DNA from: a phage
Reading direction: 5' to 3' (one strand)
NCBI GenBank assembly: GCA_026165385.1
Contig: GCA_026165385.1_4524.1
DNA: 64,000 nucleotides
The position numbers and the translations under genes are program-made. Below, in pieces: positions 8,169-62,922 of the stretch. The notes below the pieces were generated by a model that was given only the letters and a program-made list of their open reading frames with translations, was not told the origin of the DNA and made no database searches. Every line of letters begins with the position of its first letter. Positions within the stretch are counted from its first letter, which is position 1.

Positions 8169-8186
8169 GGGAGACTTCGGTCTCCC
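8169..8186. terminator. UUCG-tetraloop terminator between convergent gene 23 and the 89 aa ORF
   Basis: GGGAGAC-TTCG-GTCTCCC followed by ATTTTTGGTTTT. Confidence 0.75.
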
Positions 8187-8196
8187 ATTTTTGGTT

Positions 8197-8466
8197 TTAT
8201 TTCTGTGCAATTTCGATGTAAGTTTTCAAAATATTTTGCCAATTAGGCATACCTTCTTGGACATATGCCGGAGAACCGTCTTTGTTTTTGAATGATGCAA
8301 GTTTATCAGTGGCCCAATAACCTTTAGCTCGAGCTTCAGAATCAACTTTCATCCATACTTTGTTGAAGGCATTACCATTAACTTTTGCACCATATTTTTC
8401 TACTAACTTAACTGCTTCAGCTTCCAGAACTTTTAAAGTATCTCGTAAGAAACGTGCTTTAGTCAT
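8197..8466 (-). CDS. Hypothetical 89 aa protein between genes 23 and 24
   Basis: ORF on the opposite strand to the flanking late genes; has its own GTTTAC/TACTAT early-type promoter and a Shine-Dalgarno sequence; occupies the slot where T4 carries segD. Confidence 0.5.
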   Translation of the reverse strand: MTKARFLRDTLKVLEAEAVKLVEKYGAKVNGNAFNKVWMKVDSEARAKGYWATDKLASFKNKDGSPAYVQEGMPNWQNILKTYIEIAQK

Positions 8467-8496
8467 TTTGTTTACTCCTCTGTAGTTGATAAGTCT

Positions 8497-8526
8497 ATAG
8501 TATCACATACCAAATACGTTGTAAAC
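8497..8526 (-). promoter_or_regulatory. Early-type promoter (GTTTAC-N18-TACTAT) for the 89 aa ORF
   Basis: Minus strand GTTTAC...TACTAT about 30 nt upstream of the ATG at 8466. Confidence 0.55.
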
Positions 8527-8532
8527 AATCTT

Positions 8533-8540
8533 TATAAATA
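8533..8540 (+). promoter_or_regulatory. Late promoter TATAAATA for gene 24
   Basis: Exact TATAAATA 28 nt upstream of the gene 24 ATG. Confidence 0.7.
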
Positions 8541-8567
8541 ATCTATATCACATAAGGAAAAAATGCA

Positions 8568-9851
8568 ATGAGTAAAATCCAAAAATTATTGCGTGAATCT
8601 ACAACGTCTACTAGCAACTCAATTGGTCGCCCAAATCTCGTTGCTTTGACTCGCGCTACGACTAAATTAATATATTCTGACATTGTAGCAACACAAAGAA
8701 CTAATCAACCTGTTGCTGCTTTTTATGGTATCAAATATCTTAACCCAGATAACGAATTCACATTTAAAACCGGTGCTACTTATGCAGGCGAAGTTGGATA
8801 TGTAGACCGAGAAAAAATTACTGAGCTCACAGAAGAATCAAAAGTCACACTAAATAAAGGTGATTTTTTCAAATATAATAATATCGTCTATAAAGTGTTA
8901 GAAGATACACCATTTGCAGATATTCAAGAAAGTGATCTAGAATTAGCTCTTCAGATTGCAGTCGTTCATTTAAAGGTACGGTTATTTTCAGATGCAGCGG
9001 TAACAAGCAAATTTGAAAGCTCTGATAGCGAAATTTCTGATGCAAGATTCCAGATTAATAAATGGCAAACTTCAGTCAAATCTCGTAAACTTAAAACTGG
9101 CCTCACGGTCGAATTAGCGCAAGATTTGGAAGCGAATGGATTTGATGCCCCTAACTTCTTAGAAGATTTGCTTGCTACTGAAATGGCAGATGAAATTAAT
9201 AAAGATATTCTTCAGTCTTTAATTACTGTATCGAAACGTTATAAAGTTACTGGAATTACTGACACCGGATTTATTGACTTGAGTTATGCATCAGCTCCAG
9301 AAGCAGGTCGTTCATTATATCGAATGGTGTGTGAAATGGTATCACACATTCAAAAAGAGACAACTTATACTGCAACGTTTTGTGTAGCCTCAGCTCGTGC
9401 AGCTGCTATTCTTGCTGCTTCTGGTTGGTTAAAACATAAGCCAGAAGATGACAAGTATCTTTCACAAAATGCTTATGGATTCTTGGCAAATGGATTACCT
9501 CTTTACTGCGATACCAACAGTCCGTTAGATTATGTTATTGTGGGTGTTGTAGAAAATATCGGCGAAAAAGAAATTGTAGGGTCCATCTTTTATGCTCCAT
9601 ACACTGAAGGAGTAGATTTAGATGACCCGGAACATGTTGGTGCTTTTAAAGTTGTAGTTGATCCAGAAAGCTTGCAACCGTCTATTGGATTATTGGTTAG
9701 ATATGCTTTATCGGCAAATCCTTACACTGTAGCAAAAGATGAAAAAGAAGCGAGAGTAATTGATGGCGGGGACATGGATAAAATGGCAGGACGTTCAGAC
9801 TTGTCTGTTTTACTCGGTGTTAAATTGCCTAAAATTATTATAGATGAATAA
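8568..9851 (+). CDS. 24: Capsid vertex protein gp24
   Basis: 427 aa (same as T4 gp24); gp23-like fold region visible (shared motifs with gp23); late promoter upstream. Confidence 0.95.
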   Translation: MSKIQKLLRESTTSTSNSIGRPNLVALTRATTKLIYSDIVATQRTNQPVAAFYGIKYLNPDNEFTFKTGATYAGEVGYVDREKITELTEESKVTLNKGDFFKYNNIVYKVLEDTPFADIQESDLELALQIAVVHLKVRLFSDAAVTSKFESSDSEISDARFQINKWQTSVKSRKLKTGLTVELAQDLEANGFDAPNFLEDLLATEMADEINKDILQSLITVSKRYKVTGITDTGFIDLSYASAPEAGRSLYRMVCEMVSHIQKETTYTATFCVASARAAAILAASGWLKHKPEDDKYLSQNAYGFLANGLPLYCDTNSPLDYVIVGVVENIGEKEIVGSIFYAPYTEGVDLDDPEHVGAFKVVVDPESLQPSIGLLVRYALSANPYTVAKDEKEARVIDGGDMDKMAGRSDLSVLLGVKLPKIIIDE

Positions 9852-9859
9852 ACGAAAAA

Positions 9860-9875
9860 GGGACCTTACGGTCCC
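9860..9875. terminator. Bidirectional terminator between convergent gene 24 and rnlB
   Basis: AAAAAGGGACC-TTAC-GGTCCCTTTTTTT: GC stem flanked by an A-run and a T-run. Confidence 0.8.
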
Positions 9876-9883
9876 TTTTTTTG

Positions 9884-11523: not shown

Positions 11524-11541
11524 AAGGGGCCGAAGCCCCTT
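11524..11541 (-). terminator. UUCG-tetraloop terminator downstream of hoc
   Basis: AAGGGGC-CGAA-GCCCCTT on plus (UUCG in the minus transcript), U-rich tract following on the minus strand. Confidence 0.7.
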
Positions 11542-11545
11542 ACGA

Positions 11546-13692: not shown

Positions 13693-15207
13693 ATGACTGA
13701 CATTAAAGTACATTTTTATGATTTTAGTCACGTGCGCATTGAATGCGACGAAAGTACGTTTTACGAACTTCGTGACTTTTTTAGCTTTGAAGCTGACGGG
13801 TATAAATTTAACCCAAAATATCGCTATGGGCAATGGGATGGTAGAATTCGACTTTTAGATTACAATCGTTTGTTACCATATGGACTTGTAGGACAAATAA
13901 AAAAGTTCTGTAACAATATGAGTTATTCTGTATGGATTGACCCTAAAATCTTTGAGACTGAAGACCTTACCAGGGAAGATTTTGACGCATGGCTTTCTAA
14001 ACAAGAAATTTATTCAGGCAACGCCAAAATCGAACCGCATTGGTATCAAAAAGATGCAGTATATGAAGGACTAGTTAATCGTCGTCGAATTTTAAACCTT
14101 CCGACATCAGCAGGTAAATCACTAATCCAAGCACTTTTAGCTCGGTATTATCTAGAGAACTATGAAGGTAAAATTCTCATTATCGTCCCTACAACAGCAT
14201 TGACAACCCAGATGGCTAATGATTTTGTTGATTATCGCTTGTTTAGTCATTCGATGATTAAGAAAATTGGCGGTGGTGCCGATAAAGCGGACAAATCTAA
14301 AAACGACGCTCCAATTATTGTTGGCACATGGCAAACAGTAGTTAAACAGCCTAAAGAATGGTTCTCTCAGTTCGGTATGATGATGAACGATGAATGCCAC
14401 TTAGCAACAGGCAAAAGTATTTCTTCAATCATCTCAGGATTAAATAATTGCATGTTTAAATTCGGTTTATCCGGCTCATTAAGAGACGGAAAAGCCAATG
14501 TAATGCAGTACGTAGGCATGTTCGGCGAAATCTTCCGTCCTGTTAGCACGTCTAAATTAATGGAAGATGGACAGGTAACTGAGCTTAAGATTAATAGTAT
14601 TTTCCTTCGTTATCCGGACGAATTCACCGTTAAATTAAAAGGTAAAACATACCAAGAAGAAGTTAAAATTATCACCGGACTAAAACGACGTACAAAGTGG
14701 ATTGCTCAACTTTCAGTCAAATTAGCTAAGAAAGACGAGAACGCCTTTGTAATGTTTAAACACGTTACGCACGGTAAAGAAATATTTGAAGCTATTAAAG
14801 AGCTTGGATACGAAAAAGTTTATTACGTATCAGGTGAAGTTGATACTGAAACACGTAACGCGCTTAAAGTCATGGCAGAAAATGGTAAAGGCATTATTAT
14901 TGTCGCATCATATGGAGTATTCTCTACTGGTATTTCAGTCAAGAATCTTCATCATGTTATTTTCGCCCATGGTGTTAAATCAAAAATTATCGTACTTCAA
15001 ACCGTAGGTCGCGTGCTTCGTAAGCATGGTTCTAAAGCTGTTGCTACAGTTTGGGATCTCATCGACGACGCAGGTGTAAAACCTAAATCATTAAATACTA
15101 AAAAGAAGTATACTCATCTTAATTACTTGTTAAAACACGGCATTGATCGTATCCAACGTTACGCTGATGAGAAATTTAACTATGTAATGAAAACAATTAA
15201 TTTATAA
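13693..15207 (+). CDS. uvsW: UvsW DNA/RNA helicase
   Basis: 504 aa; Walker A (PTSAGKS) and DECH box; size and position as T4 UvsW. Confidence 0.95.
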   Translation: MTDIKVHFYDFSHVRIECDESTFYELRDFFSFEADGYKFNPKYRYGQWDGRIRLLDYNRLLPYGLVGQIKKFCNNMSYSVWIDPKIFETEDLTREDFDAWLSKQEIYSGNAKIEPHWYQKDAVYEGLVNRRRILNLPTSAGKSLIQALLARYYLENYEGKILIIVPTTALTTQMANDFVDYRLFSHSMIKKIGGGADKADKSKNDAPIIVGTWQTVVKQPKEWFSQFGMMMNDECHLATGKSISSIISGLNNCMFKFGLSGSLRDGKANVMQYVGMFGEIFRPVSTSKLMEDGQVTELKINSIFLRYPDEFTVKLKGKTYQEEVKIITGLKRRTKWIAQLSVKLAKKDENAFVMFKHVTHGKEIFEAIKELGYEKVYYVSGEVDTETRNALKVMAENGKGIIIVASYGVFSTGISVKNLHHVIFAHGVKSKIIVLQTVGRVLRKHGSKAVATVWDLIDDAGVKPKSLNTKKKYTHLNYLLKHGIDRIQRYADEKFNYVMKTINL

Positions 15208-15222
15208 GGGCTTCGGCCCTTA
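15205..15222 (+). terminator. UUCG-tetraloop hairpin overlapping the uvsW stop codon
   Basis: TAAGGGC-TTCG-GCCCTTA followed directly by the uvsW.1 Shine-Dalgarno; no U-tract, so probably an RNA-stability or coupling element. Confidence 0.5.
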
Positions 15223-15232
15223 GGAGATAAAA

Positions 15233-23770: not shown

Positions 23771-23775
23771 GAAAA

Positions 23776-23792
23776 GGGAGACAACGTCTCCC
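23776..23792. terminator. Hairpin between convergent gene 54 and ORF 23802..24095
   Basis: GGGAGAC-AAC-GTCTCCC followed by TTTAG. Confidence 0.65.
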
Positions 23793-23801
23793 TTTAGTGG
23801 T

Positions 23802-26281: not shown

Positions 26282-26299
26282 AAGAGCCCGAAGGCTCTT
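26282..26299 (-). terminator. UUCG-tetraloop hairpin upstream of alt, downstream of the 69 aa ORF
   Basis: AAGAGCC-CGAA-GGCTCTT on plus. Confidence 0.55.
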
Positions 26300-30228: not shown

Positions 30229-30242
30229 AATATTTTCCTCAA

Positions 30243-30260
30243 TGGAGGCCGAAGCCTCCA
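30243..30260 (-). terminator. UUCG-tetraloop terminator between ORFs 30270..30635 and 29941..30228
   Basis: TGGAGGC-CGAA-GCCTCCA flanked by a T-run. Confidence 0.65.
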
Positions 30261-30269
30261 TTTTTAAGA

Positions 30270-31121: not shown

Positions 31122-31150
31122 ATAGTAACACATCCTACAGGAGAGTAAAC
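31122..31150 (-). promoter_or_regulatory. Early-type promoter (GTTTAC-N17-TACTAT) upstream of ORF 30709..31080
   Basis: Minus-strand motif. Confidence 0.55.
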
Positions 31151-31186
31151 ATCTTTTTAAACTTTTTCTGCCCTAAACGCACAAAA

Positions 31187-31204
31187 GGGAGACCGAAGTC
31201 TCCC
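31187..31204 (-). terminator. UUCG-tetraloop terminator downstream of the 59 aa basic ORF
   Basis: GGGAGAC-CGAA-GTCTCCC; the same 18-mer as at 45949 and the reverse complement of 8169. Confidence 0.7.
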
Positions 31205-31209
31205 TAAAA

Positions 31210-39449: not shown

Positions 39450-39860
39450 CTACTTTTTCTTATGTTGGATATTCCAAGGCGGGTTGAACTTTTTGATAAA
39501 AAGTGGTTCTTCAAGGTCCATTGTTGCGATGGTCATTGAACCAAGTTCGTTGGTGACTGAAAGGTCAAAACATTGGCGGGCCCAGAATTCAACCTTTTTG
39601 CCTTGCATTAAGGCATCCAAAATCATAAGTGATTTTCTTGAATCTGAAGTCTGGTCTTTTCGATTTATGGCTGTTCGATAATAGTTAATGCGTTTCTTTA
39701 AATTCTTGGTTTTACCAATATACACAAGTTCGTCATCTATAGCAATAGCGTATATGACATTTTTCTTATTAGGGACATCGACTGTTTTAATTGTTGCATC
39801 TTCTAATAGCTCCAATTCTGTATATTTAATAAAGGAATATTCGGCGGCAATATCTTTCAT
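39450..39860 (-). CDS. denA: Endonuclease II (GIY-YIG family)
   Basis: 136 aa (same as T4 DenA); GIY-YIG-like segment (VIYAIAIDDELVYIGKTKNLKKR). Confidence 0.85.
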   Translation of the reverse strand: MKDIAAEYSFIKYTELELLEDATIKTVDVPNKKNVIYAIAIDDELVYIGKTKNLKKRINYYRTAINRKDQTSDSRKSLMILDALMQGKKVEFWARQCFDLSVTNELGSMTIATMDLEEPLFIKKFNPPWNIQHKKK

Positions 39861-39868
39861 AATAAAGT

Positions 39869-39882
39869 GGGACCGAAGTCCC
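39869..39882 (-). terminator. UUCG-tetraloop hairpin downstream of nrdB
   Basis: GGGAC-CGAA-GTCCC between the nrdB stop and the denA start. Confidence 0.6.
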
Positions 39883-39886
39883 GTCC

Positions 39887-41065
39887 TTAGAAATATTTTT
39901 TGTATGAATTGATTACATTTTGGTCTACATCATTATCAATTTGTGCGACAAGATAAGAACTGATTTCAACTTCCTGAGGAGCTGCTTGAACTAAATCGGA
40001 GTTCAGATATTCACGAATCCATGGAATAGGATGGCGAGTTGATACGTCTTTAAGTGGACAAGGTAGACCACAACTACGCATACGAGATACAGTAAGGTAA
40101 TCCACAAATTCGCTTAGAATTTTAACATTTAGCCCTGGCAGAGCACCATCTTTAAACAAGTGTTCAGCCCATTCTTTTTCTTGAGCATTAACTTCCATAA
40201 AGATATCAACGGCTTCTTTCTCACATTCTTTTGTGATCTGAACCCACTCATCACCATCTTCACCGTCTTGTAAAGCACGAATAATATATTGAGTGCCTTT
40301 AAGGTGAAGCTGTTCATCACGTGCGATGAACTTCATAATCTTCGCATTACCTTCCATAATTTCCATATTTTTATGGAAGTTGAAAGTACAAGCAAAAGAT
40401 ACATAAAAACGAATAGCTTCCAAGGCGTTAATAACATGCAGGCAGAGATAAAGAGATTTCATTAGCTCACGCTTCCAATATGTCTCATGCTCAATAGCAT
40501 CTTCAATAACGTCTTCGTCTGCATTAATTTCTTTTTGGTATTCGATATCAGCTTTAGCATTTTCCCAATAACGAGTTTTAACTAAGACATCGTCGTAATA
40601 ACGTCCGATAGATTCAGCACGTTTCATAATAGCTTCGTCTAATACAATTTCATCAAATACCTTCGATGGATCGGTATAAAGATTTCGCATGATATGAGTA
40701 TATGAACGGGAGTGAATAGTTTCACTGAAAGTCCATGTAGCAACCCATGTATCTAATGAAGGGTCTGAAAGCAATGACATAAGTACCGCAGATGGTGCCC
40801 TGCCTTGGATAGAATCTAATAATGATTGATACTTAAGGTTGTTGGTAAAGATATTCTGTTGGAACTGAGGAAGCTTATTGAACTGGGCTGAATCCAGCAT
40901 CAGGTTTACTTCTTCTGGCCGCCAAAAGAACGAGAGTTGCTTTTCGATAAGCTCTTCAAAAACTTTATGACGTTGGATATCGTAACGTGCAAGACCAAGA
41001 CCAGAACCAAAGAACATCGGTTCATTCAAAACATCGACTTGTTGTGTATTAAAAACTGTACTCAT
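39887..41065 (-). CDS. nrdB: Ribonucleotide reductase small subunit, intron-less
   Basis: 392 aa; class Ia R2 di-iron motifs; continuous reading frame. Confidence 0.95.
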   Translation of the reverse strand: MSTVFNTQQVDVLNEPMFFGSGLGLARYDIQRHKVFEELIEKQLSFFWRPEEVNLMLDSAQFNKLPQFQQNIFTNNLKYQSLLDSIQGRAPSAVLMSLLSDPSLDTWVATWTFSETIHSRSYTHIMRNLYTDPSKVFDEIVLDEAIMKRAESIGRYYDDVLVKTRYWENAKADIEYQKEINADEDVIEDAIEHETYWKRELMKSLYLCLHVINALEAIRFYVSFACTFNFHKNMEIMEGNAKIMKFIARDEQLHLKGTQYIIRALQDGEDGDEWVQITKECEKEAVDIFMEVNAQEKEWAEHLFKDGALPGLNVKILSEFVDYLTVSRMRSCGLPCPLKDVSTRHPIPWIREYLNSDLVQAAPQEVEISSYLVAQIDNDVDQNVINSYKKYF

Positions 41066-43719: not shown

Positions 43720-43720
43720 T

Positions 43721-45165: not shown

Positions 45166-45167
45166 TT

Positions 45168-45416
45168 TTATTTCCTCAGATTTTTCTTAACAACTTTCCA
45201 ATCAGCTTTAAACGATTCAACATCAGAGTGGTGAATCCAGAATCCTGCGCTTTCACCATCTTCGTAGAGTGGACATCCATCACATTCTTCGTTCCAACCC
45301 ATTTCACGTAAAGCTTCTTCAGCTTGTTCAAGGAGTTCAGCGTCTTTACCAACGATGTTGAAGTACCATTTACCTTTAACTTCAGAATCGTTAATGCTTT
45401 GGCGTTGTAATCTCAT
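45168..45416 (-). CDS. Hypothetical protein (frd.1 position)
   Basis: 82 aa ORF with an early promoter and Shine-Dalgarno upstream. Confidence 0.5.
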   Translation of the reverse strand: MRLQRQSINDSEVKGKWYFNIVGKDAELLEQAEEALREMGWNEECDGCPLYEDGESAGFWIHHSDVESFKADWKVVKKNLRK

Positions 45417-45442
45417 TTTATTCTCCTCTTGATGATAGGACT

Positions 45443-45472
45443 ACTATAACATAGCCCTATCATGGTGTAAAC
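45443..45472 (-). promoter_or_regulatory. Early-type promoter (GTTTAC-N18-TATAGT) upstream of ORF 45168..45416
   Basis: Minus-strand motif. Confidence 0.5.
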
Positions 45473-45858
45473 TACTTTTTAAAAGTTTTTTGTAAAAGTT
45501 CAATGATTTCATCGACGTTGGTTTTATCTACAACACAATGAATTTTTGTTACACCCAAATCTATACCTTCGTTAACCTGTTGAGGTTTTTCTAATGTTAC
45601 CTCGGTAAAGTATTTGAATTCTTCAGAATAAATCTCAAAATACGTCTCAAGTGGTCCACCTGCGCTGTATTCAGTGCCGTCTTCCATAGTTACACGTACC
45701 ACACATTCACCGGCGCAATCGTCACTTTCTATTTCGTTGACAACAAAACTAGGTCCGTGCTTCTCTATTAATTTTAGCATCATTGCGTTGCAACGGCATT
45801 CGTTGGCAAAGTCATTTTTAGATAAAGGGTTAATGATGTACGTTTTTCCGACTTCCAT
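45472..45858 (-). CDS. Hypothetical protein (frd.2 position)
   Basis: 128 aa ORF with an early promoter and Shine-Dalgarno upstream. Confidence 0.5.
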   Translation of the reverse strand: MEVGKTYIINPLSKNDFANECRCNAMMLKLIEKHGPSFVVNEIESDDCAGECVVRVTMEDGTEYSAGGPLETYFEIYSEEFKYFTEVTLEKPQQVNEGIDLGVTKIHCVVDKTNVDEIIELLQKTFKK

Positions 45859-45888
45859 TTTGATTTCCTCGTTTGTTTTGATAGGTCT

Positions 45889-45917
45889 ATAATATCATAC
45901 CTAGAGAAGAAGTAAAC
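45889..45917 (-). promoter_or_regulatory. Early-type promoter (GTTTAC-N17-TATTAT) upstream of ORF 45472..45858
   Basis: Minus-strand motif; shares the GATATTATAGACCTATCAAAACAAA leader with the motA promoters. Confidence 0.55.
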
Positions 45918-45948
45918 AACTTTTTTGGCAATTTACAGATACTCAAAA

Positions 45949-45966
45949 GGGAGACCGAAGTCTCCC
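45949..45966 (-). terminator. UUCG-tetraloop terminator downstream of gene 32
   Basis: GGGAGAC-CGAA-GTCTCCC 7 nt after the gene 32 stop. Confidence 0.7.
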
Positions 45967-45972
45967 AATTTA

Positions 45973-46875
45973 TTATAGACCAGCTAACAGGTCATCGAGG
46001 TCGCCATCATCAGAGGATGAGGTAGAGCTCATGAAGTCATCTTCAGTTTTTGCAGAACTAAAGGCTTCCATGTCTTTATCAAAATCGTCAAGGTCAGAAG
46101 CAACTTTATCTGCAACAGAAGCTGCTGCGGCTGCTGCACCACCAAGAGCGGCAGTACCAAGAACCTTAGCGAAAGATTCATTTAATTTTTCAAAGGATTT
46201 GAACTGGTCTTTAGCCGTCAAAGTAGTAAGGTCTACCATCTGGTCATATAGTTCTTTCTGGAATGCTTCGTCATTAATACGAGGAATTTCAGATTGACCC
46301 AAGAATTTAGATTCGTCATAGTTGCTAAAACCGGAAACCTGCTTAGCTTTCAGAACGAAGTTAGCACCTTCAAATGGGCAAGTAACATCAACTGGAGTTT
46401 CACCCATTTCGGTATCAACTGCAATCATTGCATTGATTTTGTCCCAAATCTTTTTACCGAAACGATATTTAAATACTTTACCTTCGTTATCTGGAGCTTG
46501 AGGGTCTTTAACAACCAGAATATTGGCCCAATAAGAGGTTTTACGTTTCAGTTGAGAATATTCAGCTTTGTTGGTATTGTACAGGTCATTTTTACTAATG
46601 TACTGACATACAGGACAAGAGTCGTAATCACCATGTGTAGAAGAGCAATTTTCAATATACCATTTACCATTTTTCTTGAAACCGTGGTTAACAAGAATTG
46701 CAAATGGTAGTGCATCATCAGTTTTTGCTGGCAAGAAACGAATTACCGCTTGACCATTACCGGATGCATCTAGCTTCAGCTTCCATTCGCCTTTATCTTC
46801 TGAAGAGAAACCTTTGTTACCATTCAGTTTAGCCATTTGAGCAGCGAGGTCAGCAGTAGATTTACGTTTAAACAT
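45973..46875 (-). CDS. 32: Single-stranded DNA-binding protein gp32
   Basis: 300 aa; matches T4 gp32 ([36 protein letters not shown]...), acidic C-terminus. Confidence 0.97.
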
Positions 46876-46960
46876 GGATTATTACCTTTTATTTAGATTA
46901 TTTAATTTATTTACTTACAGTTGGTTGCTACGACACTTATACCTCGTAGCTGGTATGATT
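46876..46960 (-). promoter_or_regulatory. Gene 32 mRNA leader: probable translational operator (hairpin plus unstructured UUAAA-rich tract)
   Basis: Hairpin GCUACG...CGUAGC at 46927-46950, then an A/U-rich tract with repeated UUAAA/UAAAU next to the start codon; T4 gp32 autoregulates through such a leader. Confidence 0.5.
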
Positions 46961-46968
46961 TATTTATA
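46961..46968 (-). promoter_or_regulatory. Late promoter (minus strand) for gene 32
   Basis: Plus-strand TATTTATA about 90 nt upstream of the gene 32 start, 5' of the leader hairpin. Confidence 0.6.
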
Positions 46969-46997
46969 AAGTAATTTTAACACACAAGAAATAAAGC

Positions 46998-47651
46998 TTA
47001 ATACTTACATGATTTGATTGTTTCTATGAACAATTTCTTAGCAGCATTTCCATCGATTTGAAGTATTTTTCGATATGCCTTTAATTTGGTAGAATAATTT
47101 TGCCAGACTAAATTGTCAGTAAGTTCATCATGCTTATCTATAATATTCAAGAATGAATCCAACAACAAGAAGGTTTCAAACGAAATTATATTGCTTTGTA
47201 GCAATTTAAATATGTAGCTCGACTGAACTTTATTATTATAATCAAATATCTCTTGAAGCGCACTAACTTCCACTTTCTTACTGAAATAGTAGATGTTACG
47301 CACATCTTCAGCAAACGTCTCCTTGGCTTGTTTGAGACGTCCAATATATTCCCTATAGAAAACTAATGCATCAGCGTCTGATATCTCACCAATCCATGCA
47401 TCTTGGTTAGCAACTAAGTTACTGATGAATATCAAAGTGAGTTCCTTTAACTTATATTTCTCTGCTAGTTTCTCAAAGAAATATTTATCTCGGCGTTTTT
47501 GATACGCATTATCCGAAACACGCATGCACCAGTTATATTTGATTACGTCATACCGACCATTAAAATGTTGTTTGCACATCAAGTATAGTTTGTATACCGA
47601 TTTTCCATTAATATAACGTTCTCCGTCAGGAGGCATGCGTATTTTAATCAT
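46998..47651 (-). CDS. 59: Helicase loader gp59
   Basis: 217 aa, same as T4 gp59; position between 32 and 33. Confidence 0.9.
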   Translation of the reverse strand: MIKIRMPPDGERYINGKSVYKLYLMCKQHFNGRYDVIKYNWCMRVSDNAYQKRRDKYFFEKLAEKYKLKELTLIFISNLVANQDAWIGEISDADALVFYREYIGRLKQAKETFAEDVRNIYYFSKKVEVSALQEIFDYNNKVQSSYIFKLLQSNIISFETFLLLDSFLNIIDKHDELTDNLVWQNYSTKLKAYRKILQIDGNAAKKLFIETIKSCKY

Positions 47652-47986
47652 AATAAGAAATCTAACGTATTAGTTTTTTCACCACGAGCAACTGATGGGC
47701 GAAGCATGTTTTCGTCAATTGCTTCGCTTGTAATTTTTTCAACAATTCCTGTAGGAATAAATTTAGCAAATTGTGTTTCTGGAATAGAATTTTCTTCCAA
47801 GAAAGCAGTTGTTGCTTCTAAATAAGACATACCAAATTGTTCAACCATGGATTCGATAATGAATCCGTTTTCTTGTCGGTCAAGCAATTTAGCGATATCA
47901 TCTTTATCATGTTTTACTGCTAATTCTTGTTCAGATAAACCGGCCTCATCAACCGGTTTAATATCACTTAGTGAAAACTGTGTCAT
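47648..47986 (-). CDS. 33: Late transcription co-activator gp33
   Basis: 112 aa; matches T4 gp33 (MTQFSLxDIxPVDExGLSE...KTNTLDFLL). Confidence 0.93.
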   Translation of the reverse strand: MTQFSLSDIKPVDEAGLSEQELAVKHDKDDIAKLLDRQENGFIIESMVEQFGMSYLEATTAFLEENSIPETQFAKFIPTGIVEKITSEAIDENMLRPSVARGEKTNTLDFLL

Positions 47987-48233
47987 AAAGCTCGACTACC
48001 TCTTCGTTTTCAGCTTCAAATTGGTCACGAGCGTCTTTATGATAAAGAGCCAACAAACGATTAAACATTTTTCCATCTACGCCAAGCTCTTCTTTAGCGC
48101 GAGTACGAATGTCTTTAATCAGTTCATTATAACCAGAAATTTTAAGTTTGTTATCGGAAGCTTCCTTGACTAGTTTAGCCAGTTCTTCACCATGCACATC
48201 TTGATTAAATTCAACTGCTTCTTTCTTAGCCAT
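47964..48233 (-). CDS. dsbA: dsDNA-binding protein DsbA
   Basis: 89 aa from MAKKE with GAGGT Shine-Dalgarno; matches T4 DsbA; the track ORF starts 18 nt too far upstream. Confidence 0.9.
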   Translation of the reverse strand: MAKKEAVEFNQDVHGEELAKLVKEASDNKLKISGYNELIKDIRTRAKEELGVDGKMFNRLLALYHKDARDQFEAENEEVVELYDTVFTK

Positions 48234-53120: not shown

Positions 53121-54245
53121 ATGGAAAAATTTATGGCAAGGTTTGGACAGGGATACGTCCAAACGCCGTTTTTATCGGAAAGCAATTCAGTTAGATTTAA
53201 GCTAAGTATAGCGGGTTCATGCCCGCTTTCAACAACTAATCCGTATATTTTGTTCCAAAACGAGCCTTTAGGGTTGCAGTCTTTTGGTATTGGACTAAAT
53301 GTTAGGGTGATAAATCCGGAAAATGGAACTATAGTTGATAGTAAATTATACAATTTTGCGCCTACAAATAATGCAACTTCAGCTGCATTTATTTCGTTTG
53401 TTAATACATACGCGGATAATTTCATTTTCGCATTTATTTCTAATAACAAATTTAATTTGCCACCGGAAATAATTGAATGGTTTAAAGCTGCTGGGAGTTC
53501 AGTTATACCGTCAATTGAAGTTGCTAGTCTTGTTGATATTTCATATTCAGCGTTTTATGTTTCAGGTAAAAATACTATTGCATTAGAACACATAAAATAC
53601 AGTAATAAGAAAACAATTTCTGATTACGCAACTCCATTAGATATTGTATATGACTCTATTGCTGATATAGGTGCTACCGGCTATCCTAGACGTACATATG
53701 AAGCTCTAGAAACGTTTTTATCTCCTGTTGGAGGAACTAACAATGAAATAAAAAGGATGCCTACGTCATCCCTTGTTACTCCTATCGCAAACTATGGATT
53801 AAAGCCTACAGATTTTCTTTATTTGAAATTTCAATTAACGGCTGATGAAGAATTATTAGAGGAAGGAACCACAAGACTTTCAATTCGTTTCTTTAAGTCT
53901 CCATCTAGCTCTCCTATATCATCTAAAGATATAAACTTTGATGGAATTGCCGGGGAGTGGAAGCTATATGAAGAATACGTTGAAATACCAGCTGAAGCTG
54001 ACGGCTTTACAGTATATTGTTACCGTACGGCCTCAGTCGGTCAAGGTGGACTAAGAAATGTTATTTTCACTGAAGTATCATGTAACGGAAGTATAGCAAA
54101 ACCCGCTGAGTTTGGTATAAACGGTATTCGTGTTAATTACATTGATGAATCATTAACCGGTAATGATATAATGGACTTGCCTACTCAGTTATCTAACGAC
54201 ACAGGTAAGGTATTTGGGCAGGAATTTAAAGAGTACACAGAATAA
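53121..54245 (+). CDS. 35: Long tail fibre hinge connector gp35
   Basis: 374 aa (T4 372 aa); position between 34 and 36. Confidence 0.9.
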   Translation: MEKFMARFGQGYVQTPFLSESNSVRFKLSIAGSCPLSTTNPYILFQNEPLGLQSFGIGLNVRVINPENGTIVDSKLYNFAPTNNATSAAFISFVNTYADNFIFAFISNNKFNLPPEIIEWFKAAGSSVIPSIEVASLVDISYSAFYVSGKNTIALEHIKYSNKKTISDYATPLDIVYDSIADIGATGYPRRTYEALETFLSPVGGTNNEIKRMPTSSLVTPIANYGLKPTDFLYLKFQLTADEELLEEGTTRLSIRFFKSPSSSPISSKDINFDGIAGEWKLYEEYVEIPAEADGFTVYCYRTASVGQGGLRNVIFTEVSCNGSIAKPAEFGINGIRVNYIDESLTGNDIMDLPTQLSNDTGKVFGQEFKEYTE

Positions 54246-54246
54246 A

Positions 54247-54262
54247 GGAGACTTCGGTCTCC
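54247..54262 (+). terminator. UUCG-tetraloop terminator downstream of gene 35
   Basis: AGGAGAC-TTCG-GTCTCC followed by TTTT. Confidence 0.7.
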
Positions 54263-54270
54263 TTTTCGCG

Positions 54271-54278
54271 TATAAATA
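54271..54278 (+). promoter_or_regulatory. Late promoter TATAAATA for gene 36
   Basis: Exact TATAAATA about 27 nt upstream of the gene 36 ATG, just after the gene 35 terminator hairpin. Confidence 0.7.
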
Positions 54279-58209: not shown

Positions 58210-58214
58210 TAAAA

Positions 58215-58228
58215 GGGCCTTCGGGCCC
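58215..58228 (+). terminator. UUCG-tetraloop hairpin between genes 37 and 38
   Basis: GGGCC-TTCG-GGCCC right after the gene 37 stop and before the gene 38 Shine-Dalgarno; no U-tract. Confidence 0.5.
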
Positions 58229-58239
58229 TGGAGGTTTAT

Positions 58240-59019
58240 ATGGCAGTAGTAGGAATCCCTGGTTGGATTGGGACCTCAGCCGTTGCTGAAACAGGTCAAA
58301 GATGGATGACGGCTGCTTCAAGGGAACTTCGTTTAGGAAACCCTTCATGGATGTCCCAATTCGCGGGCCGTTCAAGAGAAATAATTCATACACTTGGTGC
58401 AGACCATAACTTTAACGGACAATGGTTCCGTGACCGTTGCTTTGAAGCTGGCGGCGCTCCTATAGTGTTTAATATCACCGGAAATTTGGTATCATATAGT
58501 AAAGATGTTCCATTATTCTTTATGTATGGCGATACGCCAAATGAATATGTTACTTTGAATATTCATGGTGGGGTTCATATGTGGGGACGAGGTGGTAACG
58601 GTACTGTAAACGGAAACCCAGGCACAAATGGCGGTGATGTAATCCAAAATGATATCGGCGGAAGACTTCGTATTTGGAACTATGGCGTTATTGCATCAGG
58701 CGGTGGTGGTGGTGGTGCAGTGTCATTACAGAATAGCTGGGCGCCAAATGCTACAGCAGGTGGCGGTGGCGGCAGACCATTTGGCCTCGGCGGAGGCGGC
58801 GTTAATTGGCCGGGTGGTAATGCTAGTTATGACGCCCCGGGAGGCGCCGGTTACACTTCCCAATTCGGCGGTGGTAATGGTGGTGATGCTGGAGGTCGGG
58901 GCGGAGATGGATGGGGTAATCACTTATCTAGATCCGGCGGTGGTGCTCCTGGCAGAGCAGTATTCGGAAGTTCACCGTCATGGGGTGCTACAGGCACAAT
59001 CTACGGCTCCTGGATTTAA
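58240..59019 (+). CDS. 38: Tail fibre adhesin gp38 (T2-type, glycine-rich motifs)
   Basis: 259 aa; several poly-glycine motifs ([39 protein letters not shown]) separated by short variable segments. Confidence 0.85.
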
Positions 59020-61061: not shown

Positions 61062-61522
61062 TAGTAAAGGTCCTCAGAGTAAAGTTCTTTTTCATTACCA
61101 CCACGTTCAATACGTACTTGTCCAGCGTAAGTTGCAATAATCATTGCTTCTTCACGTGTCCAATAATTACTATATTGGTCAATAAACCCTTGGTCATCAT
61201 CACAAACTTGTTGAGTAACTAATTGAGGTTTAACTACATCTAAAACTTCTGCCATATCTTTAGAATAATGACGAGCACCTGGAATAATAAGAGTTCGTCC
61301 ATCTTTTAATTTAAACCGGTTGGCTGCGCAGACAATTCGTCGTTGATACTTTTGGTTTTCATCCCAATACAGAGTCTGCCAACAGATTTCAGGAACTTCA
61401 TCTAAAACATTTTGTTCTGTATATTCACCGCCGTAAGAAGCTAATTTAGCAGCCAGACTTTCCGGAGTCTCACGCGACAAAGCTTTATCTAACAGAGCTA
61501 AACGTTCTTTAAAAGTTTTCAT
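61061..61522 (-). CDS. Hypothetical protein
   Basis: 153 aa ORF, stop/start overlaps with neighbours. Confidence 0.5.
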
Positions 61523-61848
61523 TTAAACCATTCCTTAATACGTTGCCAAATAGATTTTTGTGCTTGTTTATTTACACCAATCGAACGAATAACTGGTTGT
61601 GACTGCTGATATTCTTTATAATCTTCTTTATAGATTTCGTAAGCTGCATCAACAAATGAACTGATCGCTGCCATGTAGTTTTTACGAAGGCCAAATGGCG
61701 CGTCATTATTTTCACGAATAACCGTATATTGGCCTGCTTTAATCTTTACAATTGTCCCTAAATAAGCCCCGTGGTACCAAATATCCCATCCTTCCTGAGT
61801 AGGTTCTGCACATTTACGAAGTTCGTTAATAATATTCAGCTTATTCAT
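61519..61848 (-). CDS. Hypothetical protein (motA.1 position)
   Basis: 109 aa ORF directly downstream of motA. Confidence 0.5.
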
Positions 61849-61858
61849 TATGTATTCC

Positions 61859-62491
61859 TCACAGTACGTTAGTTACAAGGGTAATGATTTCTTTGGACAC
61901 ATTAGGGAAGTCAATGTAAGTATATTTACCACCGATCTTAATCTTAACATCATTTTCAAGAGAAGTAAACAGCTTTGATTCAGTTTCTGACATGTTGTAT
62001 GCAAAGATTCTAAGAGAACCATCTCGACGAATTTCAATTTGGCGAATACCTAGAACTCGTTTTGCAAATCGAACTTCCAAGTTACTACGGTTTTCACCAA
62101 TTTCTTTAACTTCGACTTTATCTTTAATATTTTCAAAAACAAAGTTTGCCAGTTCATGCATTTCAGGAGTAACTCCACGTGCTTTTCTGGTGTTACGTTT
62201 CTGAAGAAGTTCTGGAGCATTTTCTTGGGCAAAGAGGTCTGCAGCTTTTTGGATAATATCCATTGCTTCGCCTGTTGCTACAAGTCCATCACCGGATTTT
62301 TCGACTAAACCTTTCTTAATCAATACACCAATGTTAGAGTTAACAACTGATGCATTGTATTCTGCTTCCAGAGCTTCACGGACATTGGCAGCAGTGGTGA
62401 AGTTGTTCTTAATGATATAAACCATTATTGTGGCAGTTTTTTCATTCAGAGCGTTTTCAGAAGCTTTGATGATGTAAGTAACTTTAGACAT
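61859..62491 (-). CDS. motA: Middle-transcription activator MotA
   Basis: 210 aa; matches T4 MotA (MSKVTYIIKAS...NSNIGVLIKKGLVEKSGDGL...). Confidence 0.93.
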   Translation of the reverse strand: MSKVTYIIKASENALNEKTATIMVYIIKNNFTTAANVREALEAEYNASVVNSNIGVLIKKGLVEKSGDGLVATGEAMDIIQKAADLFAQENAPELLQKRNTRKARGVTPEMHELANFVFENIKDKVEVKEIGENRSNLEVRFAKRVLGIRQIEIRRDGSLRIFAYNMSETESKLFTSLENDVKIKIGGKYTYIDFPNVSKEIITLVTNVL

Positions 62492-62550
62492 TTTATTTCT
62501 CCAATTTGGTTGTTTTGTTTTGATAGGTCTATAATATCATGTTTGAAGCA
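62483..62550 (-). repeat. 68-bp direct repeat, copy A (motA promoter, leader and first codons)
   Basis: Identical to 62805..62872; includes the ATG and first three codons of motA. Confidence 0.85.
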
Positions 62551-62559
62551 AAAGTAAAC
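62531..62559 (-). promoter_or_regulatory. Early/middle promoter upstream of motA (GTTTAC, TGCTTCA, TATTAT)
   Basis: Minus strand GTTTACtttTGCTTCAaacatgatatTATTAT; part of the duplicated cassette. Confidence 0.55.
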
Positions 62560-62597
62560 TTTATTTTGGGCTCTTTTTCCAAAAGCCCTGGTAAAAT

Positions 62598-62813
62598 TTA
62601 CAAACTCATTTCTTTAATAAGGTCAATAAGTTTTGCCTTTTTAGAACGAAGCTTTTCTAAACGATGTCCATTTGAACCGCGAACCACTAAAGAATTGATT
62701 TCAACTTCTAAGAAATTTAATTCTTCAACAAGTGCTTTACGGGGAGCATTCATACCAGGTTTAACTTTACCGAAACGAGTAGTTGTGTTTTGGGTTAATT
62801 TCATTTTAGACAT
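62598..62813 (-). CDS. Hypothetical basic protein (52.1 position)
   Basis: 71 aa ORF; shares promoter, leader and first three codons (MSK) with motA through a duplicated cassette. Confidence 0.5.
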   Translation of the reverse strand: MSKMKLTQNTTTRFGKVKPGMNAPRKALVEELNFLEVEINSLVVRGSNGHRLEKLRSKKAKLIDLIKEMSL

Positions 62814-62872
62814 TTTATTTCTCCAATTTGGTTGTTTTGTTTTGATAGGTCTATAATATCATGTTTGAAGCA
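62805..62872 (-). repeat. 68-bp direct repeat, copy B (52.1-like ORF promoter, leader and first codons)
   Basis: Identical to 62483..62550; a shorter 26-bp core recurs at 45873..45898. Confidence 0.85.
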
Positions 62873-62881
62873 CGTGTAAAC
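62853..62881 (-). promoter_or_regulatory. Early/middle promoter upstream of the 52.1-like ORF (duplicate of the motA promoter)
   Basis: Minus strand GTTTACacgTGCTTCAaacatgatatTATTAT; second copy of the cassette. Confidence 0.55.
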
Positions 62882-62906
62882 TGTTTTGTGAGAAAAATGC
62901 ACAAAA

Positions 62907-62922
62907 GGGAGCCGAAGCTCCC
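62907..62922 (-). terminator. UUCG-tetraloop terminator downstream of gene 52
   Basis: GGGAGC-CGAA-GCTCCC with a U-rich tract following on the minus strand. Confidence 0.65.

What the first reader, a model, noticed from the sequence alone, without database searches (positions are those of the whole stretch)
8169..62922. Family of GC-clamped UUCG-tetraloop hairpins oriented with transcription at gene ends
At least ten intergenic hairpins share a GC-rich stem of 5-7 bp and a tetraloop that reads UUCG in the transcript of the gene immediately upstream, on whichever strand that gene lies (8169, 11524, 15205, 26282, 30243, 31187, 39869, 45949, 54247, 58215, 62907). Three are the identical 18-mer GGGAGACCGAAGTCTCCC or its complement. 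Some are followed by U-tracts and look like intrinsic terminators; others sit between a stop codon and the next Shine-Dalgarno with no U-tract, suggesting RNA-stability or translational-coupling roles.
Basis: seen in the sequence. Interest (0 to 1): 0.5.

Follow-up and report, generated by a model that had tools for sequence, protein, structure and literature searches.

The report
Classic T4-type UUCG hairpins at gene ends
The window comes from a T4-like coliphage, and the flagged elements are the well-known, very stable C(UUCG)G RNA hairpins that such phages place between genes as terminators and ribosome-binding-site scaffolds; they are real, but already described.

Summary
All 11 hairpins exist at the stated coordinates, and a 12th with a U.G closing pair lies at 2162-2183. 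I found 12 TTCG/CGAA-loop hairpins of at least 5 bp, against 0.58 expected by chance. All are intergenic or overlap a stop codon, and all read UUCG in the transcript of the local gene.

The window is a Mosigvirus, an RB69-like T4-type phage, spanning genes 18 to 52. In a 98%-identical complete genome, 24 of 24 such hairpins are in the sense orientation. T4 shows the same pattern.

At orthologous sites in other T4-like phages the stems differ by compensated changes. The loop stays UUCG or is replaced by other stable RNA tetraloops (UACG, GCAA, GAAA). Selection therefore acts on RNA stability, not on a DNA or protein-binding motif.

The hairpins fall into functional groups:
- Five carry U-tracts and are intrinsic terminators. 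Three of these are PeSL terminator plus early-promoter cassettes.
- Three abut late promoters.
- Three sit directly 5' of a Shine-Dalgarno sequence.
- One, at nrdB-denA, lies between the Shine-Dalgarno sequence and the AUG, a "split RBS" like T4 genes 38 and 25.

This is the phenomenon in which the cUUCGg tetraloop was discovered (Tuerk et al. 1988), and the sense-strand bias in T4 is already published. It is already known and of low interest.

The parts
2162..2183 (+). AUGGGCUAU-UUCG-GUAGCCCAU hairpin with a U.G closing pair, between gene 18 and gene 19. Its 3' arm overlaps the late promoter TATAAATA (2183-2190).
   Evidence: T4 has the same arrangement with a compensated stem (GGCCUGU-UUCG-GCAGGCC, then TATAAATA).
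8168..8187 (+). Gene 23 (major capsid protein) intrinsic terminator: UGGGAGAC-UUCG-GUCUCCCA followed by UUUUUGGUUUU. It lies 23 nt after the stop codon, where gp23 converges with a minus-strand ORF.
   Evidence: z = -4.5. A hairpin plus U-tract is present after gp23 in 63 of 63 IMG/VR T4-like loci; the loop is UUCG in 34, UACG in 7, GCAA in 6 and GAAA in 3. T4 has AGGGAACC-UUCG-GGUUCCCU.
11524..11541 (-). hoc terminator: AAGGGGC-UUCG-GCCCCUU followed by UCUUCGUUUUU, 4 nt after the stop codon.
   Evidence: The hairpin after T4 hoc is identical.
15205..15222 (+). UAAGGGC-UUCG-GCCCUUA hairpin whose first three bases are the uvsW stop codon. The Shine-Dalgarno GGAG (15223-15226) follows immediately, then the AUG of the next gene at 15233. 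There is no U-tract.
   Evidence: Among the uvsW loci examined it is present only in the two nearest relatives; other T4-like phages have overlapping or tightly spaced stop and start codons instead.
26282..26299 (-). AAGAGCC-UUCG-GGCUCUU hairpin overlapping the stop codon of the alt.1 homologue. It is followed by UUUUCU and a late-promoter-like CATAAATA (26275-26268) upstream of alt.
   Evidence: T4 has AUUAAAGGCC-UUCG-GGCCUUUAAU at the same junction.
30241..30262 (-). AAUGGAGGC-UUCG-GCCUCCAUU hairpin between the 30.7 and 30.6 homologues. The Shine-Dalgarno GAGG (30240-30237) follows immediately, and there is no U-tract.
   Evidence: (z = -3.2). T4 has GAGGGGC-UUCA-GCCCCUU followed by the same GAGGAAAAUAUUAUG.
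31122..31205 (-). PeSL-type cassette. It comprises the hairpin AGGGAGAC-UUCG-GUCUCCCU (31205-31186), UUUUGUG, and an early promoter GTTTAC (31150-31145), 17 nt, TACTAT (31127-31122).
   Evidence: T4 has AGGACUCC-UUCG-GGAGUCCU after gene 30.9.
39858..39889 (-). nrdB-denA junction with a split ribosome-binding site. UAAGGA (the nrdB stop codon plus the Shine-Dalgarno sequence, 39889-39884) is followed by C, then GGGAC-UUCG-GUCCC (39882-39869), then ACUUUAUU, then AUG (39860-39858). The Shine-Dalgarno sequence is 23 nt from the AUG in linear sequence and 9 nt if the hairpin forms.
   Evidence: Covariation in 15 distinct sequences: 93% of cells paired, 3 pairs with changes on both sides, 0 of 500 shuffles as good. 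The loop is GCAA in T4 and GCAA or GUAA in some other relatives.
45889..45966 (-). Gene 32 terminator within a PeSL cassette. It comprises GGGAGAC-UUCG-GUCUCCC (45966-45949), UUUUGAG, and an early promoter TTTACT, 16 nt, TG-TATTAT (45916-45889).
   Evidence: A hairpin plus U-tract follows gp32 in relatives; the loop is UUCG in 26 of 75 loci.
54244..54278 (+). AAAGGAGAC-UUCG-GUCUCCUUU overlapping the gene 35 stop codon, followed by UUUUCG and then the late promoter TATAAATA (54271-54278) for gene 36.
   Evidence: (z = -3.6). T4 has a C(UUCG)G hairpin with one internal mismatch, then a U-tract and TATAAATA, at the same junction.
58214..58242 (+). AGGGCC-UUCG-GGCCCU between gene 37 and gene 38. 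The Shine-Dalgarno GGAGG (58230-58234) follows, with the AUG at 58240. There is no U-tract.
   Evidence: T4 has GGAG, then GGGC-UUCG-GCCC, then AUG at the 37/38 junction, which is the published split RBS (PMC3014915). ChristianSchoenbein has a GGGGG/CCCCC hairpin with a different loop there.
62853..62923 (-). PeSL cassette after gene 52. It comprises AGGGAGC-UUCG-GCUCCCU (62923-62906), UUUUGUGCAUUUUU, and an early promoter TTTACA, 16 nt, TG-TATTAT (62880-62853).
   Evidence: The promoter and leader are duplicated as an 86-nt direct repeat flanking an inserted 71-aa ORF.

Best explanation
These are the classical C(UUCG)G-tetraloop RNA hairpins of T4-type phage mRNAs. They act in the transcript, which is why the asymmetric loop always reads UUCG on the coding strand. 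The UUCG loop closed by C-G adds unusual stability and nucleates folding quickly, so a short 5-9 bp G+C stem in an A+T-rich genome (37-40% G+C) forms reliably during transcription.

The same structural module is used in several contexts.

1. With a 3' U-tract it is the hairpin of an intrinsic (Rho-independent) terminator or attenuator. These lie at the ends of gp23, hoc, the 30.9 homologue, gp32 and gp52. Weaker, probably leaky versions follow the alt.1 homologue and gp35.
2. Three of those terminators are the stem-loop half of PeSL cassettes. A PeSL cassette is a terminator followed about 30 nt later by a T4 early promoter (GTTTAC, 16-17 nt, TAnTAT). It insulates early transcription units, and its repeated sequence can mediate cassette insertion.
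3. Three hairpins sit immediately upstream of late promoters, at the 18/19, alt.1/alt and 35/36 junctions. They probably attenuate read-through and mark the 3' end of the upstream message.
4. Without a U-tract the hairpin shapes the translation-initiation region of the next gene. In three cases it lies directly 5' of the Shine-Dalgarno sequence (after uvsW, at 30.7/30.6 and at 37/38). There it may keep the Shine-Dalgarno sequence single-stranded and may block 3'-to-5' exonucleases. At nrdB/denA it lies between the Shine-Dalgarno sequence and the AUG, shortening a 23-nt spacing to about 9 nt, as in the published split RBS of T4 genes 38 and 25.

Shown here: existence, enrichment, strand bias, position, conservation with compensated stems, and loop swapping among stable RNA tetraloops. 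Inferred: actual termination, RNA stabilisation, and the effect on translation.
For: Identity of the window: 95-98% identical to Mosigvirus genomes, with gene order 18 to 52.

Enrichment and strand bias: 12 observed against 0.58 expected. Of 15 sense CTTCGG hexamers, 11 are in hairpins; of 14 antisense hexamers, none is. In phage ChristianSchoenbein, 24 of 24 hairpins are sense and 20 are intergenic with a C-G closing pair. About 17 are sense in T4, including the gene 60 bypass loop.

RNA-level selection: after gp23, 63 of 63 loci have a hairpin plus U-tract. Many different, fully compensated stems occur, and 50 of the 63 loops are UNCG or GNRA. The pattern after gp32 is similar. The nrdB-denA hairpin covaries and swaps UUCG for GCAA or GUAA. 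The wac/13, 37/38, 30.7/30.6 and 18/19 junctions in T4 carry compensated or loop-swapped versions.

Folding: every hairpin is in the minimum-energy and centroid structures of its transcript context.

PeSL architecture: shared hairpin, U-tract, GTTTAC and TAnTAT elements, plus an 86-nt repeat flanking an inserted ORF.

The exact 18-mer is a generic phage terminator. Of 81 occurrences in 80 diverse IMG/VR loci, 75 lie within 120 nt downstream of a long open frame on the UUCG strand, 23 of them between convergent frames; only 1 follows an antisense frame alone. Seventy have at least 5 T in the next 8 nt.

Literature: UUCG was found in T4 mRNA and is extraordinarily stable (PMC4371310). CUUCGG hairpins are abundant in T4 intergenic regions (PMC8948821 citing Tuerk 1988). 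In T4, sense-strand CTTCGG has a hairpin context and antisense CTTCGG does not (PMC7165471). PeSL stem-loops terminate transcription in reporter assays (PMC2839356; PMC4122927). The split RBS of genes 38 and 25 is reviewed in PMC3014915.
Against: There are no transcript 3'-end, half-life or translation data for this phage, so every functional assignment rests on sequence and on analogy to T4 and RB49.

The simple terminator scan is noisy, with 55 hits in total against about 41 expected. It also flags some of the hairpins on the antisense strand, because A-rich 5' flanks read as T-rich on the other strand.

U-tracts at 31186 and 62906 are interrupted (UUUUGUG), so termination may be partial.

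The uvsW hairpin is confined to the nearest relatives, so it is not an essential conserved element.

The energy z-scores of several 56-nt contexts are modest, between -0.3 and -2. The shuffles keep the G+C-rich bases, so this is partly expected.
Confidence: 0.9

Rival explanations
1. The elements act at the DNA level, as palindromic protein-binding or recombination sites or as cruciforms, for example as PeSL recombination hot spots. On this view the RNA hairpin is incidental.
For: PeSL cassettes are proposed recombination substrates (PMC2839356; PMC4122927). A cassette insertion flanked by 86-nt repeats lies next to the 62906 hairpin. Identical 18-mers occur at three loci.
Against: A DNA palindrome has no reason to keep its asymmetric loop in one orientation relative to transcription, yet 12 of 12 here and 24 of 24 genome-wide do so. 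Orthologous loops change to other stable RNA tetraloops on the sense strand. The 86-nt repeat that flanks the insertion covers the promoter and leader, not the hairpin.
Confidence: 0.04
2. The elements are a dispersed repeat family related by descent, like bacterial REP or MITE elements, that spread by copying. This would explain the identical 18-mers.
For: There are three identical 18-mers plus one near-copy. The stem GGGAGAC/GUCUCCC recurs, also with a different loop, at 23773. The three PeSL sites share about 80 nt of flanking similarity.
Against: Outside the three PeSL sites the flanks are unrelated. The hairpins occupy orthologous junctions in T4 and many other phages with different stems, so they are old, in-place elements. 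The same 18-mer recurs as a terminator in more than 120 unrelated viral contigs, which points to convergence on a favourable design.
Confidence: 0.04
3. The hairpins without a U-tract are mainly barriers to 3'-to-5' exonucleases and processing boundaries. They would stabilise the upstream cistron's mRNA segment and have no role in translation of the downstream gene.
For: They sit 0-7 nt after stop codons. Stable 3' hairpins protect bacterial mRNAs from PNPase and RNase II (established knowledge). T4 mRNAs are heavily processed (PMC3014915).
Against: At nrdB/denA the only Shine-Dalgarno sequence lies upstream of the hairpin, and this architecture is conserved, which ties the hairpin to initiation. 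At 15205, 30241 and 58214 the Shine-Dalgarno sequence starts at the first base after the stem, a precise juxtaposition. The two roles are not mutually exclusive.
Confidence: 0.3
4. The hairpins are operators for a sequence-specific RNA-binding protein, such as RegA, gp32, gp43 or a RegB cofactor, that recognises the UUCG loop.
For: Several stems contain GGAG, the RegB cleavage motif, and some hairpins abut Shine-Dalgarno sequences.
Against: The loop is interchangeable with GCAA, GUAA, GAAA and UACG at orthologous sites. The published view is that no proteins bind the cUUCGg loop (PMC4371310). The known T4 gp43 operator has a UAAC loop (PMC3014915).
Confidence: 0.02

Closest known systems
CUUCGG hairpins of bacteriophage T4 mRNA (Tuerk et al. 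1988, PNAS 85:1364)
   Same: The motif is the same, C(UUCG)G on a short G+C stem. So are the phage group, the intercistronic location and the restriction to the sense strand. Several sites are orthologous to T4 hairpins: after 23, hoc, alt.1 and 30.9, and at 37/38 and 18/19.
   Different: Only the genome differs (a Mosigvirus rather than T4) and the particular set of junctions. gp32, gp52, nrdB/denA and uvsW carry UUCG here, whereas T4 has other loops or no hairpin at those sites.
Intrinsic (Rho-independent) terminators of E. coli and its phages
   Same: A G+C-rich hairpin is followed by a U-tract just after a stop codon. Stable tetraloops are favoured. Five sites fit this fully.
   Different: Three sites (15205, 30241, 58214) lack the U-tract and cannot be canonical terminators. 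At 39869 the U-rich tail is the spacer before the denA AUG. Two other sites have short U-runs.
PeSL (promoter-early stem-loop) cassettes of T4-like phages (Arbiol et al. 2010; Comeau et al. 2014)
   Same: A stem-loop terminator, an A/T-rich spacer, an early promoter of the TTTACW-N16-17-TAYWAT type, a Shine-Dalgarno sequence and a start codon. The cassette is repeated with sequence similarity, and one copy is adjacent to a cassette indel.
   Different: This applies to only 3 of the 12 hairpins. Promoter and terminator activity were not assayed here.
Split (structure-bridged) ribosome-binding sites of T4 genes 38 and 25 (Nivinskas and colleagues; reviewed in PMC3014915)
   Same: At nrdB/denA the Shine-Dalgarno sequence is 23 nt from the AUG. 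An intervening stable hairpin reduces this to about 9 nt, compared with 22 to 5 nt for gene 38 and 27 to 11 nt for gene 25. The arrangement is conserved with covariation.
   Different: It is a different gene. I found no publication describing it for denA. In this window the gene 38 hairpin lies 5' of the Shine-Dalgarno sequence rather than between it and the AUG.
Bacterial REP/BIME intergenic palindromes
   Same: Short G+C-rich intergenic palindromes that can stabilise upstream mRNA.
   Different: REP elements are a sequence family spread by descent and are bound by specific proteins. The hairpins here share only a design, have unrelated flanks, and are conserved in place.

Membership tests
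T4-type CUUCGG mRNA hairpins (Tuerk 1988) | UUCG tetraloop closed by a C-G pair on a Watson-Crick stem | tested here: met
   Eleven of the 12 intergenic hairpins meet this; the one at 2162-2183 has a U.G closing pair.
T4-type CUUCGG mRNA hairpins (Tuerk 1988) | Located predominantly in intercistronic regions of a T4-type phage genome | tested here: met
   The window is a Mosigvirus. All 12 hairpins are intergenic or overlap a stop codon, in the 5.3% of the window that is non-coding.
T4-type CUUCGG mRNA hairpins (Tuerk 1988) | Hairpin context only when CUUCGG is on the sense (mRNA) strand | tested here: met
   Eleven of 15 sense hexamers are in hairpins, against 0 of 14 antisense. In the relative's genome 24 of 24 are sense. 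This matches PMC7165471.
T4-type CUUCGG mRNA hairpins (Tuerk 1988) | Exceptional thermodynamic stability of the RNA hairpin (melting behaviour, reverse-transcriptase stops) | not testable with these tools
   Only nearest-neighbour predictions are available: -7.5 to -14.4 kcal/mol for the isolated hairpins.
Intrinsic (Rho-independent) terminator | G+C-rich hairpin immediately followed by a U-rich tract (about 5 or more U within 8 nt) | tested here: met
   Met at 8168, 11524 and 45949. Met at 31186 and 62906 if the terminal A-U or U-A pair is counted as tail. Weak at 26282 and 54244. Not met at 15205, 30241 and 58214. At 39869 the U-rich tail is the spacer before the AUG.
Intrinsic (Rho-independent) terminator | Transcript 3' ends map to the U-tract | not testable with these tools
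   No RNA data are available, and no T4-group 3'-end map was found in the searchable literature.
Intrinsic (Rho-independent) terminator | Structure conserved at the orthologous gene end in relatives, with compensatory stem changes | tested here: met
   After gp23, 63 of 63 loci. After gp32, the close relatives listed carry a G+C hairpin followed by a U-run.
PeSL cassette | Stem-loop followed by a sigma-70-type early promoter (TTTACW, N16-17, TAYWAT), a Shine-Dalgarno sequence and a start codon | tested here: met
   Met at 31186, 45949 and 62906 only.
PeSL cassette | Association with insertion or deletion of small ORFs between close relatives | tested here: met
   A 322-bp insertion carrying a 71-aa ORF, flanked by an 86-nt direct repeat of the promoter and leader, is absent from ChristianSchoenbein. 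Shown for one cassette only.
PeSL cassette | Demonstrated promoter and terminator activity | not testable with these tools
   Shown for RB49 and phi1 PeSLs in the literature, not for these.
Split (structure-bridged) RBS, as in T4 genes 38 and 25 | Shine-Dalgarno sequence too far from the AUG in linear sequence, with no alternative Shine-Dalgarno sequence nearer the AUG | tested here: met
   At denA, UAAGGA lies 23 nt upstream, and the 8 nt before the AUG are ACUUUAUU.
Split (structure-bridged) RBS, as in T4 genes 38 and 25 | Intervening stable hairpin that restores a functional spacing and is conserved with covariation | tested here: met
   The spacing becomes about 9 nt. In 15 distinct sequences 93% of cells are paired, 3 pairs change on both sides, and 0 of 500 shuffles do as well.
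Split (structure-bridged) RBS, as in T4 genes 38 and 25 | Translation depends on the hairpin (mutational test) | not testable with these tools
   This needs reporter fusions or toeprinting.

The most novel reading that the evidence does not exclude
The nrdB-denA junction is a third, previously undescribed, conserved 'split' ribosome-binding site of the T-even phages. The Shine-Dalgarno sequence overlaps the nrdB stop codon, and a stable tetraloop hairpin (UUCG, GCAA or GUAA) brings it within reach of the denA AUG. Endonuclease II synthesis would then depend on the hairpin folding after nrdB translation terminates. It would also follow that the RefSeq T4 denA start codon is mis-annotated.
Probability: 0.35. 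Interest if true: 0.3.

Novelty: already known. Interest (0 to 1): 0.1.

Why it matters
It matters little as a discovery. This is the system in which the cUUCGg tetraloop was first recognised, and the sense-strand bias, the terminator role, the PeSL cassettes and the split RBS are all published for T4-type phages. Its practical value lies in annotation. In Mosigvirus genomes these hairpins mark the ends of transcription units, early-promoter cassettes and true start codons such as that of denA. They also give a ready set of compact natural terminators. The conserved arrangement at denA, with the hairpin between the Shine-Dalgarno sequence and the AUG, is a small, testable addition to the list of structure-bridged initiation sites.

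Tried and rejected
- Rfam gave no family at gathering threshold anywhere in the window, so no curated RNA family covers these hairpins.
- The consensus terminator scan was too noisy to classify sites. Hit counts were close to those of the shuffles, and some hairpins were called on the antisense strand. I relied on explicit tail inspection and comparative data instead.
- My first dinucleotide-shuffle script timed out. I replaced it with first-order Markov simulations.
- Tuerk et al. 1988 could not be retrieved by PubMed id or PMC id. It is cited through papers that describe it.
- Literature searches for a genome-wide 3'-end map of T4-type phages and for a described denA split RBS found nothing usable.
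- The uvsW hairpin is not a conserved element. It is present only in the two nearest relatives.
- The three identical 18-mers do not mark one repeated mobile element. Flank alignment shows similarity only among the three PeSL sites, and the 18-mer is a common terminator in unrelated viral contigs.

Full report
**What the window is.** Megablast of 40000-48000 finds 156 phage records that cover most of the query. The best is Escherichia phage ChristianSchoenbein (MZ501056, genus Mosigvirus, Tevenvirinae) at 97.7% identity. I transferred its annotation by tblastn, which gave a collinear gene map. The map runs from gene 18 (tail sheath) through genes 19-24, hoc, uvsW, the baseplate genes, alt, gene 30, the 30.x genes, pseT, rnlA, denA, nrdB/A, td, frd, gene 32, genes 59 and 33, rnh, tail-fibre genes 34-38, t, asiA and motA to gene 52. 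G+C content is 35-43%.

**Checking the observation.** All eleven coordinates hold perfect hairpins with a TTCG or CGAA tetraloop, a C-G closing pair and stems of 5-9 bp.
- The 18-mer occurs exactly three times, plus a 2-mismatch copy at 54246. No shuffle contained any copy.
- Hairpins with this loop and a stem of at least 5 bp number 12, against a mean of 0.58 and a maximum of 4 in 200 Markov simulations.
- The extra hairpin in that count is an A-U-closed one inside a gene, at 28279-28294.
- In that scan UUCG was the loop of 12 of 22 stable intergenic hairpin sites. The others carry GAAA, UUAC/GUAA, AAC/GUU and longer loops.
- All 12 lie in the 5.3% of the window that is non-coding, or overlap a stop codon. 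Each reads UUCG in the transcript of the gene immediately upstream.
- Counting hexamers, 11 of 15 sense-strand CTTCGG are in hairpins and 0 of 14 antisense ones are (Fisher p = 5e-5).
- Folded as RNA in 56-59-nt contexts, every hairpin appears in both the minimum-energy and the centroid structure.

In 166 of the 169 kb of ChristianSchoenbein there are 24 such hairpins. By the deposited annotation all 24 are sense-oriented, and 20 are intergenic with C-G closure. The exact 18-mer occurs four times, twice on each strand, each time co-oriented with the local genes. T4 itself (NC_000866) has about 17 C(UUCG)G hairpins, all sense-oriented, including the known loop in the gene 60 bypass region.

**Evidence that selection acts on the RNA.**
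- Downstream of gp23, 63 of 63 IMG/VR T4-like loci have a G+C hairpin plus U-tract within about 10-70 nt of the stop codon.
- Those loci use many different, fully compensated stems, such as GGGAGAC, GGGAACC, GGGACC, GGAGCC, GGCAACC and GGGGAAGUC.
- Their loops are UUCG in 34, UACG in 7, GCAA in 6 and GAAA in 3, so 50 of 63 are UNCG or GNRA.
- Downstream of gp32 the loop is UUCG in 26 of 75 loci.
- T4 carries compensated or loop-swapped versions at the 18/19, 23, hoc, alt.1, 30.9, 30.7/30.6 (UUCA), 35/36, 37/38 and wac/13 (GCAA) junctions.
- A DNA palindrome or a loop-specific protein site would not behave this way. A requirement for a fast-folding, very stable RNA hairpin would.

**Functional classes, from sequence (and as cited).**

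(a) U-tract terminators.
- 8168, after gp23: UUUUUGGUUUU.
- 11524, after hoc: UCUUCGUUUUU.
- 31186, 45949 and 62906: UUUUGNG.

(b) PeSL cassettes. The last three terminators share a further architecture: the hairpin, an A-rich spacer, GTTTAC, 16-17 nt, and (TG)TAnTAT. This is the promoter-early stem-loop (PeSL) cassette described for T4-like phages. Its stem-loops terminate transcription in reporter assays (PMC2839356; PMC4122927).

The 62906 cassette shows the proposed PeSL behaviour directly. Relative to ChristianSchoenbein, the window has a 322-bp insertion carrying a 71-aa ORF (phrog_6200, function unknown). The insertion is flanked by an 86-nt, 93%-identical direct repeat of the motA promoter, leader and first codons.

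(c) Hairpins next to late promoters. Three are followed at once by a late promoter: TATAAATA at 2183-2190 and at 54271-54278, and CATAAATA at 26275-26268.

(d) Hairpins without a U-tract.
- At 15205, 30241 and 58214 a Shine-Dalgarno sequence (GGAG, GAGG, GGAGG) begins at the first base after the stem.
- At 39869 the only Shine-Dalgarno sequence, UAAGGA, overlaps the nrdB stop codon and lies upstream of the hairpin. Only ACUUUAUU separates the hairpin from the denA AUG.
- That arrangement is present in T4, with a GCAA loop, and in about 25 other T4-like loci.
- The helix covaries: 93% of cells are paired, 3 pairs change on both sides, and 0 of 500 shuffles do as well.
- The linear spacing of 23 nt shrinks to about 9 nt if the hairpin forms. 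This parallels the published split RBS of T4 gene 38 (22 to 5 nt) and gene 25 (27 to 11 nt) (PMC3014915).
- The uvsW hairpin, by contrast, is confined to the nearest relatives.

**Is the 18-mer special?** No. An exact-match scan of IMG/VR hit its limit at 120 contigs from diverse environments. In the 80 loci returned there are 81 occurrences.
- 75 lie within 120 nt downstream of a long open frame on the UUCG strand; 23 of these sit between convergent frames.
- One follows only an antisense frame, and five follow none.
- 70 have at least 5 T in the next 8 nt.

It is a generic, repeatedly evolved phage terminator. Within this genome, identity among copies may also reflect exchange between PeSL cassettes, but I did not test that.

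[quoted passage not shown] 1988, as described in PMC4371310). Such hairpins are described as 'especially abundant in T4 phages', predominantly intergenic (PMC8948821). A 2020 paper from the Gold laboratory reports that sense-strand CTTCGG in T4 has a hairpin context more than half the time, and antisense CTTCGG never does (PMC7165471). My counts reproduce that result in this window. The finding is therefore a correct rediscovery of a textbook feature in a close relative of T4.

**Limits.** No transcript data exist for this phage in my tools, so termination, stabilisation and translational effects are all inferred. The consensus terminator scan was too noisy to be informative. Rfam has no family for these hairpins.

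**Verdict.** The feature is already known, and interest is low (0.1). The one item that may be new is the conserved hairpin between the Shine-Dalgarno sequence and the AUG at nrdB/denA.

Noticed in passing
window 62483-62568 and 62805-62890 (repeat); ORF 62598-62813 (-): An 86-nt direct repeat (93% identical) of the motA early promoter, 5' leader and first codons flanks a 71-aa ORF (phrog_6200, function unknown). The ORF is absent from the 98%-identical phage ChristianSchoenbein. This is a clean example of a PeSL-type cassette insertion between gene 52 and motA.
   Followed up: partly
window 39858-39889 (-); L007 37923-37970 (-) in T4: A conserved arrangement at nrdB/denA places the hairpin between the Shine-Dalgarno sequence and the AUG, and the Shine-Dalgarno sequence overlaps the nrdB stop codon. 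The RefSeq T4 record starts denA at 137951, inside or upstream of this hairpin. The conserved AUGAAA lies about 26 nt downstream, so the T4 start is probably mis-annotated.
   Followed up: partly
window 9854-9881 and 23773-23795: Bidirectional terminators lie between convergent genes. At gp24/rnlB the hairpin is AAAAAGGGACC-UUAC/GUAA-GGUCCCUUUUU, with U-tracts both ways and a GNRA loop on the minus strand. At gp54/alt.-3 it is AAAGGGAGAC-AAC/GUU-GUCUCCCUUU, reusing the GGGAGAC stem with a triloop.
   Followed up: no
L003 about 24364-24383 (ChristianSchoenbein gene 40) and L005 22329-22348 (T4 gene 40): A C(UUCG)G hairpin lies inside the coding sequence of gene 40, about 50 nt after its start and just after the uvsX stop codon. 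It is conserved between T4 (UCCCCCUC/GAGGGGGA) and the Mosigvirus (UCCCCUUC/GAAGGGGA) with a compensated pair, and has no U-tract. Its function is unknown.
   Followed up: no
window 28279-28294 (-): An A-U-closed UUCG hairpin (UUUAGA-UUCG-UCUAAA) lies inside the 3' end of the 30.2 homologue's coding sequence. It is also present in ChristianSchoenbein. It is weak and may be due to chance.
   Followed up: no
window 8168-8187, 23773-23795, 30241-30262, 31186-31205, 45949-45966, 54244-54265, 62906-62923: Seven hairpins have GGAG, the RegB endoribonuclease target and Shine-Dalgarno core, buried in the 5' arm of the stem (GGGAGAC, GGGAGC, UGGAGGC). I did not examine whether sequestering GGAG matters or whether this is just a purine-rich stem bias.
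   Followed up: no
window 34696-34725 (-) and 45432-45463 (-): Two longer A+U-richer intergenic hairpins of 13 bp (loops AUAC and GUUAUA) lie upstream of early genes and overlap predicted early promoters (TTTACA, 17 nt, TACTAT at 34734-34706; TTTACA, 17 nt, TATAGT at 45471-45443). They may be 5'-leader structures rather than terminators.
   Followed up: no
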